From Carcharhinus amblyrhynchos (taxonomy: Eukaryota), in NCBI GenBank assembly GCA_965287045.1, contig OZ336874.1, positions 35,650,001-35,714,000 on the forward strand: 64,000 nucleotides of DNA, written 5' to 3'. Shown one piece after another: positions 9,001 through 24,000 of this stretch. Made by a program: the position numbers. The number at the start of each line of letters is the position of its first letter. Within the stretch, counting starts at the first letter, position 1.

Positions 9001-12000
9001 AAAGTTACCAAGACTCATAGGTGGGGGTGGTTAGTCCGGCAGCTGTAAGAGTTTCACTTTCTTTTCGCTGTGTCGCAGGGGGACTTGGCGATTTTTTTCT
9101 CTCTCTCTAAAGGCGAACAGGACATGATCTCACATGTAGCGAGCTCTTTTAGTTCCTTAATCATTTCACGGTTTGTTCAGAGCCTTTTCTCCACCTAAAA
9201 CGTTTAGTTTCGGATCAATGGGCAGCACCAAAGACGCGGCGGGATAGCGGAAGAGTCAAATTATTCGAAGCCGACAAAACACGCACACACACCGAAAAGG
9301 GGGAAACTTTTCTTCCAATCTCTTCACAAAGGACTCGAAATCCCAGAACCAGTATGGAAAAAAACGGCAGCGCGCTCAGGAGTGTCCGATCAGGTAGGTT
9401 TAAAAACGTTTCTGTGAAGAAGAAAAATATATAAATAATTAGAAAGCATGAAGCGACTGCATTGGTGACAGCCTCATACTTAACAGTACAGAAACATCAT
9501 TCATTCTATAAAAATGCATAGGAAATGTTCAGACACTTGCTTTAAAAAACAAAGGAATTTTAAATAATCAAGCGGGGTTCAATGACCGTTCAAGTCCTGG
9601 GGAATATTTGAAGCGAATTTAGTGAACTTTGAAAACTTAAAATAAACGCTAAGCATAAACAAAGGGTAGATGTATCTCCGGGCGTGAATATGGGCACTTG
9701 TGCTGTTTGTCTGAAATGAGCAGGTTAGGGGAAGACATCTTGGTGCTGATTTTTAGAGTTGTTTCCCCGTCAGAACTGAGCGTGATAACTTTTTCACGCG
9801 TTGCGGCAAATTCGGATTGCAGTAAAGCCCCCTCCAGCGATCACTTCAGATCGATAAGATAATCAATGGTCGTTCCTGAGGTTCAACAGTTTAAATAATT
9901 TAAAACACACGTTTAGTTCATGTTTAAGTTCAAAGTCGTTTGGTTTCCACTTAATATTTACAAAGTGATGGTTGTCATCAATCTGCGCAAGGCGAAACTG
10001 TTGAAGTGAGATCTGCAGCTGGGGGAGGGGGTGACAAAAAAAACAGTTCGCCGCAAACCTCTGCTTTCATGTGCGAAGGGGTGAGGTTGATCATCGCTCC
10101 TGCTTGCCTGTGGGTGTGTGTGAGTTGATCGGGATTGCTTCCAGGGTTTTTTTGTTTGCAGTTTTGCAGAATTAAAATATGTACAGTGGCTGGATTCGGT
10201 GTCACCTAAGTGTTTGCTTTGCTTTTTGCATATCGTTTGTTTTTAAGTGTCTAGATGGTTCGATAGACGCGCTGCAGATGTGGGCGATGCCGGGCACTCC
10301 ATATTTTGGTTTCTGGTTCGGAGATTAATACAAAATGTTTGTGATTGACTTGTTGATGAAAATCTCCCCCTCTCCCACCACCCGAACTGTTTTCAAATAA
10401 CCCTCTCCAGTAACTGCTTTAACATGAACTCCAAAGGTGAAACGAGCGTACGGAGGCCTCAATAATAAACATAAATTAACCCACACCGTTCACTTTGTTG
10501 ATAAACATTGATTTCAAACTTCAAAAAGTAAAGAAAAGCGAAACAGTAAAATGACCCTACCGACATCGGCTTTGGGGATCTGCGGCAGCAGCTGTTCTGA
10601 ACCTTTGACTGTTTTACTGTCTTTTAGTGCGGGACAGGTGCCGCTATAGTCAAATGGAATGAAGTTAAAATCTCTTTTGGATTTTTGTCCCGATTCTCGG
10701 ACACCCACTGTTTGACTAATTCTGACAAAAATAATTGAACAAAGCATTTCATCACATTAAAATAATTTTTTACACATTTACTTGTGAATACCCAGTGAAT
10801 TTCAATCGAGGGCTGAGGGCATGTACTTTATAACTGCAAATAAAATGTCTCCGATTGGGTTTGCCGGTCATAATGGCCACGCGTACTGAATCTTCAGCGG
10901 CAAGGCACGCTCCTTAACTCTTCTGCACTCAGTACGTCAACTCAAAACTCAGGCAATCCTTCCAATGAATCCGCACGACTTTGTTCGATTTTGCCCATAT
11001 TTCAGATTAGGAAGGCAAAGGTGGCGAACCCCTGATTTGAAAGGAGCGGTTTCAAAGTTGTTTTTGATCTCTGGTATCTTGACATGGTGTAGGGACTGAG
11101 AAGTATCTTCCTCCTGTGCTTTACAGTGTGAAATGTGGCTCCGTGTTGTCTTATACCTTCCTGCATTTCACAATACGTGCGTATCCGCTGATTATAAACA
11201 ACACTATTTTTGCTCATTTCTCAAACTGTAGGACCTCAATCGCCGTGATTCACCCAACATGGTGGAACCAGACACTGAGACCTTGCTTTTGAGAGCAGTG
11301 ATGGGGGGGGGGGGGGGGGGGGGGGGAATGGTTACAGGGTGAACGGTGAATATCGGGGATGTCTCGCCGTGCGAAGTGCCATCTGATTTTCTAGGGATTG
11401 TAAGACATTGCTATTTTCTTATCTGAAATTAATTCAACAGGTTTGCCCAGCAGCCTGTTCGCCAATACCAGTTGGACTGACAGTGATGGTTCAGGTCGCC
11501 GGCCTGTGTTTAACGTGCCCAGTTCTGTACTCAGGACCTCCACCACTTCCGCACGGCTCTGATAAAATAACAAATCAAACCCGGTTATGGGTAATGGTTC
11601 ACATCGCAAGAAATAAATCATTCAATGAAACGCAACTCCCAGCTTCCAAAAGCAGAGCGCTTAATAACCACACGACTCGGCAAAAGAATGTATTTTGTGG
11701 ATCCAGGTTTTGCCCATTACCTCTCCTGCTATTTAGAATAACACAGAGCCGTCTGCAATCCGGTTCCATTCACCACGCTCTCTTTAACCAGGGCCCTTTG
11801 CTGTTCCTTTCAATGGCAGCGTGTTAAAAATGAAAGAAACAAGAAAACGAATAGGATCTCGAAAAGGTTTAGTTAAAAAAAACAGGCCGCATTTGGCCTC
11901 AAGTATTCTTCAGCGTATTAATTTGAAATCCGTCACATAATTCACGTGGAATCACTGGAAACAAAGAGTGGGTTCCTGTGCCCTTCAGTCCCTGACAGAT

Positions 12001-21000: not shown

Positions 21001-24000
21001 TTTTGCTGTATTGTAATGCACTTTCGAACAAACTGATATCATTCAGTGGTTAATGCATCTGCATTTAAAAATAATATTTGCACTAAAGTCGGACACTAGG
21101 ATGTTATATAGCTCCTTTAAGTTAGCGCAAAAGCGAAGGATTTATTTATATATTCAAAAAACCAAAGGATTTTCTGTGGATGAAAATTATTGTTTAAAAT
21201 TATTCAAATGAAAAATTAAATTCATTTTGAACATGTGAATGAATTCCCTTTAATAAAGAGGCCCGCCTCGAGAATTTAGCAGTATGAGCCAATCAGGGTG
21301 CTGTATTAAATAGCCAATTAGCAGCGAGACCACCTCTGCTCTCTATAAAAGCTGCAGCTTATTGGTGAATGTTTTGGTGAATGCAGACCTTGCGATTGGC
21401 CATTTCTCTCAGACAGGAGTGTCATTGGTGAATAAGTCAGCAGCTCGCCCGGGGATTGGTCAAAAAGCTGGGCTGCTTTGTGCGATTGGTCGGCAGGAAG
21501 GAAGACTGTTCCTCGATTGGCTGACGGTGCTGTGATTGACAGAGACTGGGGCCGAGCGCCGTCCCAGCAGGGCTGAGCCTCGGGCGAATCAGCGCCGAAT
21601 CACCGCGGGCTCAGCCACATTTAAACACTATGGAGGAGAGTGAGCGCGACTGAATACAGAGCAGGGGGCCAGCGCACTCCGGGGAAACGGGAACCCGCCT
21701 TCACACACACACAGCGGACAAATTGCATAGGAAAACGCCAAAAAAAGAAGCTGGAATTCATAAAAGGATTTTTTCTGGTTTCGAACGATTTCGAAGTTAA
21801 AATCCCCTGCTGTCACTAGGTAGCAATTGGATCTTTTTTGGGGGGCAATGCATTGCATTTGTCAAACTTAACTTTTACGTTCCTTGTGCAATCCGTCCGA
21901 AACCTTGTGGATCACAAAGACGTAGGAGCTGCAATTAGTGGCTGGCATCGAGATCTTCTTCTGGGTTTGCGTGGGGTGCTGCTCACCCCTCTCTTGTTTT
22001 TTTTGGGAGTATAGGTGAAGGGGTTAAATCCAGACCAGGAAATCGAGGTTTTCTCCGAGTTGAAGACCGGCTGCGCCTTTTCATGGAAATCCACTGTAAG
22101 CACGACCCGTTTGCAGCAATGCATAGTAAGTAGGCAGCTCCTTCCCTGGCTTGTCTGGCGGTTCCTAGTGAGTGATAGCGTGTAAGGAGTGCTTGGGGCA
22201 CCCGGATCCAGAAGCTGACCAGGGGTCTTCCCCCCTCCCTCTCCCCCCCCCCCCCCCCCCCGCCCCCGGACCCGGAGCAAGTCTCTTTTTGCAGAGAAGC
22301 ACGATGGAGTCACACGTGCACAACTAATTTTAATATCGTCCCCGATTTCCCCCCAATTTTAAAAAACAAGTTATTGCAAATGTTTCTTAATTCCCACAAT
22401 TAAACAGAAAGCGACAATATTTGCGGACACAGTTGCAATATTGTGTTAATTACTAATAGATTTTACTACGAAATGAAATGCGATATTCCTGGTTTCTGTG
22501 ATGAACACCGTTGGTAAAAGTCAGTTGCATTAAGAGAGGAATTATTAAAATTCGCGAACAAAACAAAGATAATATATCTGTAAAATTGCAAGCGCGCTTA
22601 ACCGGCAGATTAAACAAGGCCGACGTGTAACTGTTTAATTTTTCTTTCTCCGACTGCATTGACTTTTGAATGTAAACGGCGAGGATTAAGTTGATGTAAA
22701 GCAGTGGAAGTCCGCTCTGATAGCATGGACCATGCAGAAATCTCCAGCACGTTAGTTTTGCTTGACAGCGTTGGCTGGGGCTTGTCCATTTGGTCGGTGT
22801 TATATGAAATGACACATCCTATCACGGTGTGTTAAGAGTTATTATACCTACAGCTTGTAAACAGATGCTTTATCAACTCGAACTAATCATATTGTAGTGG
22901 GGACTAAACACACTTTAAGAATCGCACCTCGTTGAACAGGTTTACTGAGTATAAATCAGGCTGGAGTCTCTTCCTCCTTCAAAAACATGTATCGATTAAA
23001 GATTGTTACCACATAGTGATGTGGAGTAAAGGCGCTCGTACAAACTTCCAGATCGAAACAAACATCATCGATTTTTAAAAAGAAAGCTGTTCTTGTTATC
23101 GAAGTCGTGTATTTTTATAATTCCACTCCGTATTTACCCATTCCCGCTTTGAATTGTACCTATACTTATCAGTGCTCAGTCGCATTAAACAATCGCGGCT
23201 TTTTTTAAAATTAAGTGTACCAAAATCTCAAAATCATACTTGGAAATGAAAAAGAATTTAAACGGATCCAGGGTGAAAGCTAACGACATGTATGGGGGGA
23301 GGGCAAATACCCTTTCAGTTATCAATTTTCTGCTCCATAGACTGAAATGAGATACCAATTACTGATATCAATTCACTGCAAAAAAAGAGGAAGTAATGCA
23401 TCATTTTTGACTCACTTACAAAACGTCAATTTCACGCCAAAACCAATAAAAGTAGCATCGAAGGAGACCAAGTACCTCGCGGCGCCGATTACCCCTCTGT
23501 GCAGGTGTTAATCCATTCCCGTTTTAACTTTCTTTCCCTCTGGCTGAGAGTAGTCTAATAAACAAAAAACGGAGATTTAAACAGGTCGATTTATCTCAAA
23601 CACTCCCAGGTTTTGCAGTATTAGCATTTAGTAACCGACCTGCATTCATTAAACACTTGTCATGCCGAGGGGCTTTATTTTATTTTTGAAAATGGATCTG
23701 CAGATAGATTCCTTTGATTCCGAATTTAAATGATGTTGGGAAAAAGGGTCTGACTATCGTTTTGAATTAGGATTTTGCATTCGCTTTCCCATTGCTGTTC
23801 TTGAAAGACTTTGTAGAGGTTGACCAACGCATTAGGACAAAAAAAAGATACTCTTGTGATTTTCGTCAGATGAACCGCGAGCTGTAGCGTAAAGTCTGGG
23901 AAACATCTCAAAATCCTGTTCCATTCGGTGTGAGAATGGAGCTGTTTGCAATTCTGCAGCCTATTACTCAAAAGAAACACGTCGTAGTCCCAGAGGTTGA

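What the first reader, a model, noticed from the sequence alone, without database searches (positions are those of the whole stretch)
9354..22125. Dual first-exon (1A/1B) Pax5 architecture in a cartilaginous fish
Seen: two ATG exons 12.7 kb apart, both with phase 1 GT donors that join exon 2 in frame. Established: mammalian exon 1A is B-cell restricted, while 1B is used in CNS, testis and B cells and is the one resembling Pax2 exon 1. Inference: the lymphoid promoter predates the shark/bony fish split. The 40 nt exon 1A is easy for annotation to miss; its peptide has diverged while its UTR appears conserved.
Basis: partly seen in the sequence, partly recalled or inferred. Interest (0 to 1): 0.7.

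Follow-up and report, generated by a model that had tools for sequence, protein, structure and literature searches.

The report
Shark Pax5 has two first exons
This stretch is the front half of a shark Pax5 gene, and it carries the same pair of alternative start exons (1A and 1B) known from mammals and chicken, so this arrangement goes back to the common ancestor of jawed vertebrates.

Summary
ATG exon 9354-9393 (40 nt) and ATG exon 22083-22125 (43 nt) both end in phase-1 GT donors. Both fit the acceptor of paired-box exon 2 at 24706.

The form alone is not beyond chance: 6 such candidates lie upstream of exon 2, against 9.7 +/- 3.9 in shuffles. Homology carries the case.
- Exon 1B is 14/14 identical to the N-terminus of shark, ray, coelacanth, gar and sturgeon Pax-5.
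- Exon 1A is 12/13 identical to the N-terminus of an annotated bamboo-shark Pax-5 isoform.
- Exon 1A is also the single best match in the window to a profile of 37 bony-vertebrate 1A peptides, built without any shark sequence (E 0.0027; next best E about 0.7).

1A-type N-termini are annotated in mammals, birds, reptiles, frogs, gar, eels and teleosts. The dual architecture therefore predates the split of cartilaginous and bony fish, contrary to one paper that dates 1A to mammals.

Not shown here: lymphoid-restricted use of 1A in sharks, the transcription start sites, and the claimed UTR conservation.

Verdict: an orthologue of a known architecture, already present in one shark's automated annotation. 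Interest is modest.

The parts
9354..9393 (+). Coding part of Pax5 exon 1A (distal first exon): MEKNGSALRSVRS plus the first base of a Gly codon. Donor GT at 9394-9395. The 5' end of the exon (the start site) is unknown.
   Evidence: 13/14 to the N-terminus of bamboo-shark Pax-5 isoform X2 (P0006), counting the split Gly. Best hit in the window to the bony-vertebrate 1A profile, E 0.0027.
22083..22125 (+). Coding part of Pax5 exon 1B (proximal first exon): MEIHCKHDPFAAMH plus the first base of an Arg codon. Donor GT at 22126-22127.
   Evidence: 14/14 to P0005. Identical to the 1B peptide listed for Xenopus, zebrafish and Fugu in Table 1 of PMC6132355.
24706..24871 (+). Exon 2 (166 nt), the common acceptor for both first exons and the first half of the paired domain.
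   Evidence: Pfam PAX E 9.2e-32. 55/55 to P0005.
32933..33130 (+). Exon 3 (198 nt), second half of the paired domain.
   Evidence: Pfam PAX E 1.9e-34. 67/67 in tblastn.
35938..36002 (+). Exon 4 (65 nt), end of the paired domain and linker (IIRTKVQQPPNQQSPVTSHTI).
40616..40747 (+). Exon 5 (132 nt) with the octapeptide YSISGILG.
   Evidence: 100% to shark Pax-5 P0005 and P0006.
21289..21520 (+). Cluster of 8 CCAAT/ATTGG boxes: two forward boxes, then TATAAAA at 21344-21350, then six inverted boxes about 30 bp apart. It lies 560-790 bp upstream of the 1B ATG and is a candidate core of the proximal promoter.
   Evidence: It is the densest 250-bp stretch of the window (8; the next bin has 3). 200 shuffles gave a mean of 3.95 and a maximum of 6.
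6001..30000 (.). Broad CpG-preserved domain over both first exons and exon 2 (median CpG observed/expected 0.69, against 0.22 in the rest of the window).

Best explanation
The window holds the 5' half of a shark Pax5 gene (exons 1A, 1B, 2, 3, 4, 5; exon 6 lies beyond the window). Transcription can start at either of two places, each with its own short ATG-bearing first exon. A distal exon 1A lies 15.3 kb upstream of exon 2, and a proximal exon 1B lies 2.6 kb upstream of it. Each first exon ends after the first base of a codon and splices to the same acceptor of exon 2. The two proteins therefore differ only in the 14-15 residues in front of the paired domain (MEKNGSALRSVRSG... or MEIHCKHDPFAAMHR...). 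Both exons are orthologues of exons 1A and 1B of bony vertebrates, so the dual first-exon arrangement was present in the last common ancestor of jawed vertebrates. Shown: the exons, their phases, the shared acceptor and the homology of both peptides. Inferred from mammals and chicken: each exon has its own promoter, and the distal one serves the B lineage while the proximal one serves the nervous system as well as B cells.
For: Gene identity: Pfam PAX on exons 2 and 3. The exon 5 peptide is 100% identical to proteins named Pax-5 of Carcharodon carcharias and Chiloscyllium punctatum, 87-97% (partial coverage) to ray and chimaera Pax-5, and 70-76% to bony vertebrates. Exons 2, 3 and 5 are 100% identical to both shark proteins within the exon limits.
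Exon 1B: 14/14 to P0005. The same peptide is found in ray, coelacanth, gar, sturgeon, bichir and bowfin proteins.
Exon 1A: the bamboo-shark RefSeq isoform X2 begins MEKNSSALRSVRSG, 13/14 to the window. A profile built from 37 distinct 1A-type peptides of bony vertebrates, with the shark left out, was run against all 3,840 stop-to-stop segments of both strands. It ranked the segment holding 9354-9393 first (15.5 bits, E 0.0027; the runner-up had 7.9 bits, E 0.67).
Same position, same phase, same split Gly: all 1A-type proteins end ...R-x-G before HGG.
Spread of the A type: among the named proteins fetched, 149 are A-type, 40 are B-type and 30 are other or lack an N-terminus. The A type occurs in mammals, birds, reptiles, frogs, gar, eels, mormyrids, cyprinids, characins and percomorphs.
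Both first exons lie in a CpG-preserved domain. A dense CCAAT cluster with a TATA-like box lies upstream of 1B.
Literature, passages read: two promoters and their tissue use in mammals (PMC6132355); both exons are used in a chicken B-cell line (PMC4301804); Pax5 marks B-cell clusters and falls in plasma cells in nurse shark spleen (PMC10529500).
Against: No transcript, junction read or start-site evidence for this species can be reached here. The form of the exons alone is within chance (6 found, 9.7 +/- 3.9 expected). By ungapped identity alone the 1A peptide is only tied for best: 3 of about 128,000 14-mers reach 7/14 to one of 16 peptides. The bamboo-shark protein is an automated model whose evidence I could not inspect. 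Only 1 of 7 chondrichthyan Pax-5 cluster representatives with an N-terminus is of the A type; the other 6 (white shark, two rays with four representatives, chimaera) are B. A bamboo-shark single-cell atlas states that pax5 is specific to B cells in the two bony fishes and did not use it as a shark B-cell marker (PMC11372145). In 1 kb upstream of either ATG, my simple patterns found no EBF-like or STAT-like site. No TATA box was found upstream of 1A.
Confidence: 0.85

Rival explanations
1. Exon 1A is real and orthologous, but in sharks it is not a B-lineage-restricted promoter. Lymphoid restriction of the distal promoter would then have arisen later, or both promoters work in all Pax5 tissues.
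For: Nothing here bears on tissue use. In the chicken B-cell line both first exons are used and regulated together (PMC4301804). The bamboo-shark atlas did not find pax5 to be a B-cell marker (PMC11372145). No EBF-like or STAT-like pattern lies within 1 kb upstream of 1A (a weak test with short patterns written from recall).
Against: Retention of a separate distal first exon in all jawed-vertebrate groups sampled suggests a retained separate regulatory role. Nurse shark B cells express Pax5 and lose it in plasma cells, as in mammals (PMC10529500).
Confidence: 0.25
2. The coding stretch at 9354-9393 is not the first exon of its transcript. One or more non-coding exons and the true distal promoter would lie further upstream, possibly outside the window.
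For: AG dinucleotides lie at 9345-9346 and 9351-9352, behind a moderately pyrimidine-rich stretch just before the ATG. No TATA box or GC box lies in the 1 kb upstream.
Against: In mammals and chicken the ATG-bearing exon 1A is itself the first exon (passages in PMC6132355 and PMC4301804). CpG observed/expected peaks at 0.98-1.03 right over 9001-10000.
Confidence: 0.12
3. The 9354 reading frame is a chance or decayed feature that is not spliced in this species, and the bamboo-shark isoform is a prediction artefact.
For: The form alone is within chance. The peptide is only 13 residues long. I could not inspect the evidence behind the RefSeq model.
Against: The profile built without any shark sequence picks this very stretch out of 3,840 segments. 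12 of 13 residues are kept between two sharks. The exon is in the right order and phase and gives the conserved Gly.
Confidence: 0.05

Closest known systems
Mammalian PAX5 promoters P1a/P1b with exons 1A and 1B (PAX5A/BSAP and PAX5B)
   Same: Order (1A distal, 1B proximal). Each first exon carries its own ATG. Coding parts are short (15 and 14 residues in mammals, 13 and 14 here). Both join the first paired-box exon. The 1B peptide matches the human one at 13/14. The 1A peptide keeps EKN and R-x-x-R-x-G.
   Different: The spacing is 12.7 kb here, against about 7 kb between the two acetylation peaks in mouse (PMC6132355). The shark 1A peptide is two residues shorter, with its Met at the position of the tetrapod Leu-3. 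Tissue use is not known in the shark.
Chicken Pax5 exons 1A and 1B
   Same: A non-mammalian case of the same pair, studied at the bench in DT40 B cells (PMC4301804). The bird 1A peptide MELEKTYATPRAGRTG is of the same type.
   Different: The two chicken exons lie within about 2.8 kb downstream of the 1A start, so they are far closer together than in the shark.
Annotated 1A-type Pax-5 isoforms of teleosts, gar and frogs, and the bamboo-shark isoform X2
   Same: The same N-terminal type. The shark shares A-L-R with percomorphs (MDQGPKSPALRLGRAG) and R-S-x-R-S-G with gar (MEFDKKQQSHRSGRSG).
   Different: These are database models. In the papers I could search, none describes them, and PMC6132355 lists 'No hits found' for exon 1A in Xenopus, zebrafish and Fugu.
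Pax2 first coding exon
   Same: Shark Pax2 begins MDIHCKADPFSAMHR (P0226), which is clearly the B type. PMC6132355 gives 65% similarity between the PAX5 1B and PAX2 first exons.
   Different: It is a paralogue. No A-type Pax2 N-terminus was seen among the 3 Pax-2 proteins listed.
Pax8 N-terminus
   Same: In the solved Pax-8 chain 2k27_A, residues NSIRSG before HGG align with RSVRSG of shark 1A.
   Different: Only six residues align, from one human chain. No test of exon structure or of other species was possible.

Membership tests
Pax5 gene (Pax2/5/8 class) | Paired domain | tested here: met
   Pfam PF00292 on exon 2 (E 9.2e-32, profile positions 2-56) and on exon 3 (E 1.9e-34, positions 57-121).
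Pax5 gene (Pax2/5/8 class) | Octapeptide motif | tested here: met
   YSISGILG in exon 5. That this motif defines the class is recalled.
Pax5 gene (Pax2/5/8 class) | Partial homeodomain and C-terminal transactivation/inhibition region | not testable with these tools
   Exon 6 and later exons are not in the window: there is no tblastn match to residues beyond about 205 of P0005.
Pax5 gene (Pax2/5/8 class) | Closest to Pax5 rather than Pax2 or Pax8 | tested here: met
   12 of the 13 hits of the exon 5 peptide are named Pax-5 or paired box 5 or are unnamed proteins of that type, and the two shark hits are 100% identical. Shark Pax2 proteins rank far lower in the full-length search with P0006 (582 bits against 806 bits). 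No tree was built.
Pax5 exon 1B | Peptide MEIHCKHDPFA(A/S)MH, phase-1 donor giving Arg, proximal position | tested here: met
Pax5 exon 1A | Lies upstream of 1B and joins exon 2 with a phase-1 donor giving Gly | tested here: met
Pax5 exon 1A | Peptide of the 1A type (M-[DE]...K...R-x-x-R-x-G) | tested here: met
   Profile of 37 bony-vertebrate peptides: best hit of 3,840 segments, E 0.0027. 5-7 of 14 identities to each of 16 peptides. phmmer aligns it with residues 3-16 of the PAX5 chain 1k78_A.
Pax5 exon 1A | Transcribed from its own promoter and spliced to exon 2 | not testable with these tools
   The only indirect support is the RefSeq isoform X2 of another shark.
Pax5 exon 1A | B-lineage-restricted use | not testable with these tools
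   No expression data are within reach. Shark B cells do express Pax5 (PMC10529500), but which promoter they use is unknown.
   No vertebrate genomic DNA collection is on hand. Simple motif scans found nothing telling.

The most novel reading that the evidence does not exclude
The A-type first exon may be older than Pax5 itself. The last residues of shark 1A (RSVRSG) match the residues before the paired domain of Pax-8 (NSIRSG, chain 2k27_A), while Pax2 keeps the B type. The ancestral vertebrate Pax2/5/8 gene would then already have had two alternative first exons before the genome duplications. Pax2 would have kept B, Pax8 would have kept A, and Pax5 both. The 'lymphoid' promoter would be a re-used older distal promoter and not an invention of the B lineage.
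Probability: 0.2. Interest if true: 0.6.

Novelty: new member of a known kind. Interest (0 to 1): 0.35.

Why it matters
Pax5 is the commitment factor of B cells, and its distal promoter is the B-cell-specific one in mammals. Finding the same distal exon in a shark dates the two-promoter design to the ancestor of all jawed vertebrates, the group in which antibody-making B cells are found. It also corrects a published table that found exon 1A only in mammals (PMC6132355). It gives exact junction coordinates for asking whether the lymphoid use of the distal promoter is equally old. It is not surprising to a specialist, and one shark's automated annotation already contains the isoform.

Tried and rejected
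(1) Form-only test of the two exons: not beyond chance. It is therefore not used as evidence.
(2) Ungapped identity scan of all 14-mers: the 1A peptide is only tied with two unrelated stretches at 7/14. This is less telling than the profile search.
(3) Short transcription-factor patterns written from recall (EBF-like, STAT, ETS, E-box, GC box, TATA) in 1 kb upstream of each ATG: nothing telling for 1A; upstream of 1B, three TATA-like sites and the CCAAT cluster.
(4) Rfam at gathering thresholds on the whole window: 0 matches.
This stays unchecked.
(6) Papers. Searches found no paper that describes exon 1A in a cartilaginous fish or a teleost. One search was a malformed search, re-sent. The trout Pax5 papers (PMC3932526, PMC2637475) and the original two-promoter paper (PMC39201) are not held. 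They may describe fish or other 1A sequences that I could not see. The subscription literature is not covered either.
Exons were translated and searched one at a time. Full-length comparisons used the database proteins P0005 and P0006.
(8) Four hits without a source name (P0018, P0020, P0062, P0225) were left out of all counts and alignments.
No other vertebrate DNA could be compared.
(10) Structure prediction, complex prediction and the protein atlas were not used, because they do not bear on the question.
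Full report
WHAT IS IN THE WINDOW. The window has no N and 40% G+C. On the + strand it holds six coding exons of a paired-box gene:
- exon 1A, coding part 9354-9393
- exon 1B, coding part 22083-22125
- exon 2, 24706-24871
- exon 3, 32933-33130
- exon 4, 35938-36002
- exon 5, 40616-40747

Exons 2 and 3 are the two halves of a Pfam PAX domain, with E 9.2e-32 and 1.9e-34. Exon 5 carries the octapeptide YSISGILG. The exon 5 peptide, searched on its own, is 100% identical to proteins named Pax-5 of the white shark (P0005) and the brownbanded bamboo shark (P0006). 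It is less similar to ray, chimaera and bony-vertebrate Pax-5 (13 hits among 61 candidates). A local tblastn of these two database proteins against the window matches exons 1B, 2, 3, 4 and 5 at 100% within the exon limits. It finds no exon 6, so intron 5 is longer than 23 kb. The window is therefore the 5' half of a shark Pax5 gene. It is not human sequence.

Exons were searched one by one, and full-length comparisons used the database proteins.

THE OBSERVATION. Exon 1A has its ATG at 9354, then 13 codons plus one base, with donor CAG|gtaggt after 9393. Exon 1B has its ATG at 22083, then 14 codons plus one base, with donor ATA|gtaagt after 22125. Exon 2 begins at 24706 behind a good pyrimidine tract. 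Its first two bases complete the split codon, giving Gly after 1A and Arg after 1B, followed by HGGVNQLGG. The ATGs are 12,729 nt apart. Neither ATG has an in-frame ATG between it and the nearest upstream in-frame stop. Their contexts are accagtATGG (1A) and cttttcATGG (1B).

IS IT MORE THAN CHANCE? By form alone it is not. The 24.7 kb upstream of exon 2 holds 6 stretches of the form 'ATG, open frame, phase-1 donor with at least 7 of 9 consensus positions'. Shuffles give 9.7 +/- 3.9. The case rests on homology.

Exon 1B is 14/14 identical to the N-terminus of Pax-5 of shark, rays, coelacanth, gar, sturgeon, bichir and bowfin. It is also identical to the 1B peptide listed for Xenopus, zebrafish and Fugu in Table 1 of PMC6132355 (passage read).

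For exon 1A there are two independent lines of evidence.
- The RefSeq isoform X2 of the bamboo shark begins MEKNSSALRSVRSG. The window reads MEKNGSALRSVRSG, a match of 13/14 counting the split Gly.
- I built a profile from the 37 distinct 1A-type N-terminal peptides of bony vertebrates returned, leaving out the shark and three unnamed hits. I ran it against all 3,840 stop-to-stop segments of at least 10 residues on both strands of the window. The top hit is the segment containing 9354-9393, aligned over exactly EKNGSALRSVRSG (15.5 bits, E 0.0027). The runner-up has 7.9 bits, E 0.67.

A cruder measure, ungapped identity to any of 16 peptides, is less decisive. The 1A peptide reaches 7/14 and is tied with two unrelated stretches among about 128,000 14-mers.

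HOW THE 1A PEPTIDE RELATES TO OTHERS. Aligned from the splice site, the shark peptide keeps several features of its bony-vertebrate counterparts:
- E-K-N of tetrapods, as in MDLEKNYPTPRTGRTG and MELEKNYTAPRTGRAG
- A-L-R of percomorphs, as in MDQGPKSPALRLGRAG
- R-S-x-R-S-G of gar and eels, as in MEFDKKQQSHRSGRSG

It is two residues shorter than the tetrapod peptides, with its Met at the place of the tetrapod third residue. phmmer aligns the bamboo-shark N-terminus with residues 3-16 of the solved PAX5 chain 1k78_A.

HOW WIDESPREAD IS THE A TYPE? Among the named proteins fetched are A-type, 40 are B-type and 30 have another N-terminus or none; four unnamed hits were left out. These counts reflect how the searches were aimed and are not frequencies in nature. 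A-type N-termini occur in mammals, birds, crocodilians, lizards, turtles, frogs, gar, eels, mormyrids, cyprinids, characins and percomorphs.

Among cartilaginous fishes, 7 Pax-5 cluster representatives have an N-terminus. One is A-type (bamboo shark). Six are B-type (white shark, thorny skate with two, devil ray with two, elephant fish).

MECHANISM. The most likely reading is the textbook one for this gene. Two promoters each drive a short first exon with its own start codon. The two exons are mutually exclusive and join the same exon 2. The products differ only in front of the paired domain.

Shown here: the exons, the phases, the common acceptor and the orthology. Inferred: that each exon has its own promoter, and that use of the distal one is lymphoid.

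Some sequence features fit promoter activity.
- CpG observed/expected has a median of 0.69 over 6-30 kb, against 0.22 elsewhere. Local peaks near 1.0 lie at 9.0-10.0 kb (over 1A) and at 22.5-23.5 kb (just past 1B).
- 560-790 bp upstream of the 1B ATG lies a cluster of eight CCAAT boxes with a TATA-like box.

From the literature, passages read:
- In mammals 1A is B-cell restricted and 1B is used in B cells, CNS and testis (PMC6132355).
- Both exons are used in a chicken B-cell line (PMC4301804).
- Nurse shark splenic B-cell clusters express Pax5 and lose it in plasma cells (PMC10529500).
- Against this, a bamboo-shark atlas reports pax5 as B-cell specific only in the two bony fishes studied (PMC11372145).

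RIVALS.
(1) Exon 1A is real but not lymphoid-restricted in sharks. This is open, because nothing here tests it.
(2) The coding stretch is not the first exon, and the distal promoter lies further upstream. This is possible: AGs lie just before the ATG, and no TATA or GC box is in the 1 kb upstream.
(3) It is a chance frame. This is unlikely given.

COMPARISON WITH WHAT IS KNOWN, AND NOVELTY. The pair 1A/1B is established for mammals and chicken. In the searchable library, six searches found no paper describing exon 1A in a cartilaginous fish or a teleost. The one paper that addresses its origin lists 'No hits found' for Xenopus, zebrafish and Fugu. It concludes that PAX5A appeared with mammals (PMC6132355). 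Current database annotation contradicts that, and the window extends the correction to sharks.

Three possibly relevant papers are not held, and supplements are closed. The isoform is also already present in one shark's RefSeq annotation. I therefore rate this as a new member of a known kind, of modest interest.

THE BOLDEST READING NOT EXCLUDED. The last six residues of shark 1A (RSVRSG) align with NSIRSG of the solved Pax-8 chain 2k27_A, and shark Pax2 has a B-type start (P0226). The two first-exon types might therefore predate the duplications that gave Pax2, Pax5 and Pax8. Six residues from one chain are a lead, not a test.

WHAT STAYED UNCHECKED.
- Transcription start sites.
- Tissue use of each first exon.
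- The evidence behind the bamboo-shark model.
- The members of the shark protein clusters.

Noticed in passing
window 21289-21520 (+), with TATAAAA at 21344-21350: There are eight CCAAT/ATTGG boxes in 228 bp: two forward boxes followed by a TATA-like box, then six inverted boxes about 30 bp apart. They lie 560-790 bp upstream of the 1B ATG. This is the densest such stretch in the window (8; the next 250-bp bin has 3; the maximum in 200 shuffles is 6). If transcription starts about 30 bp behind the TATA-like box, the 1B leader would be about 700 nt long with three short upstream reading frames (ATGs at 21381, 21630 and 21848).
   Followed up: partly
window 6001-30000: A broad domain keeps its CpG (median observed/expected 0.69, against 0.22 in the rest of the window). 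It spans both first exons, exon 2 and about 5 kb of intron 2. It looks like the large unmethylated valleys seen at developmental transcription-factor genes (that comparison is recalled).
   Followed up: partly
window 43595-44388: An imperfect GA-rich minisatellite of about 0.8 kb in intron 5 (periods of 24 to 116 nt, 67-89% matches). It produces long spurious open frames of up to 305 residues (RERE... repeats) on the + strand.
   Followed up: partly
window 1-309: GT- and G-rich tandem repeats of 27-31 nt lie at the very start of the window.
   Followed up: no
window about 57100-63100, also 419-745 and 15801-16025: Open frames with motifs typical of interspersed repeats recur on both strands (for example ...GTVVSTAASQ... 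and ...CGVCTFSLCLHGF...). A LINE-like tail lies at 58690-59357. These are probably SINE and LINE fragments in intron 5 and upstream of the gene. They were not classified.
   Followed up: no
window 40748-64000: No exon 6 of Pax5 is found, so intron 5 exceeds 23 kb. In mouse this intron holds the B-cell enhancer (PMC4301804, passage read). Whether a counterpart lies in this part of the window could not be tested.
   Followed up: no
protein P0220 (Scleropages formosus, UniRef): This protein has an odd N-terminus, MRGCIKVNMEKNQRSTLNETLFSR, before the paired domain. It contains MEKN, as the shark 1A peptide does. It may be a mis-modelled first exon.
   Followed up: no
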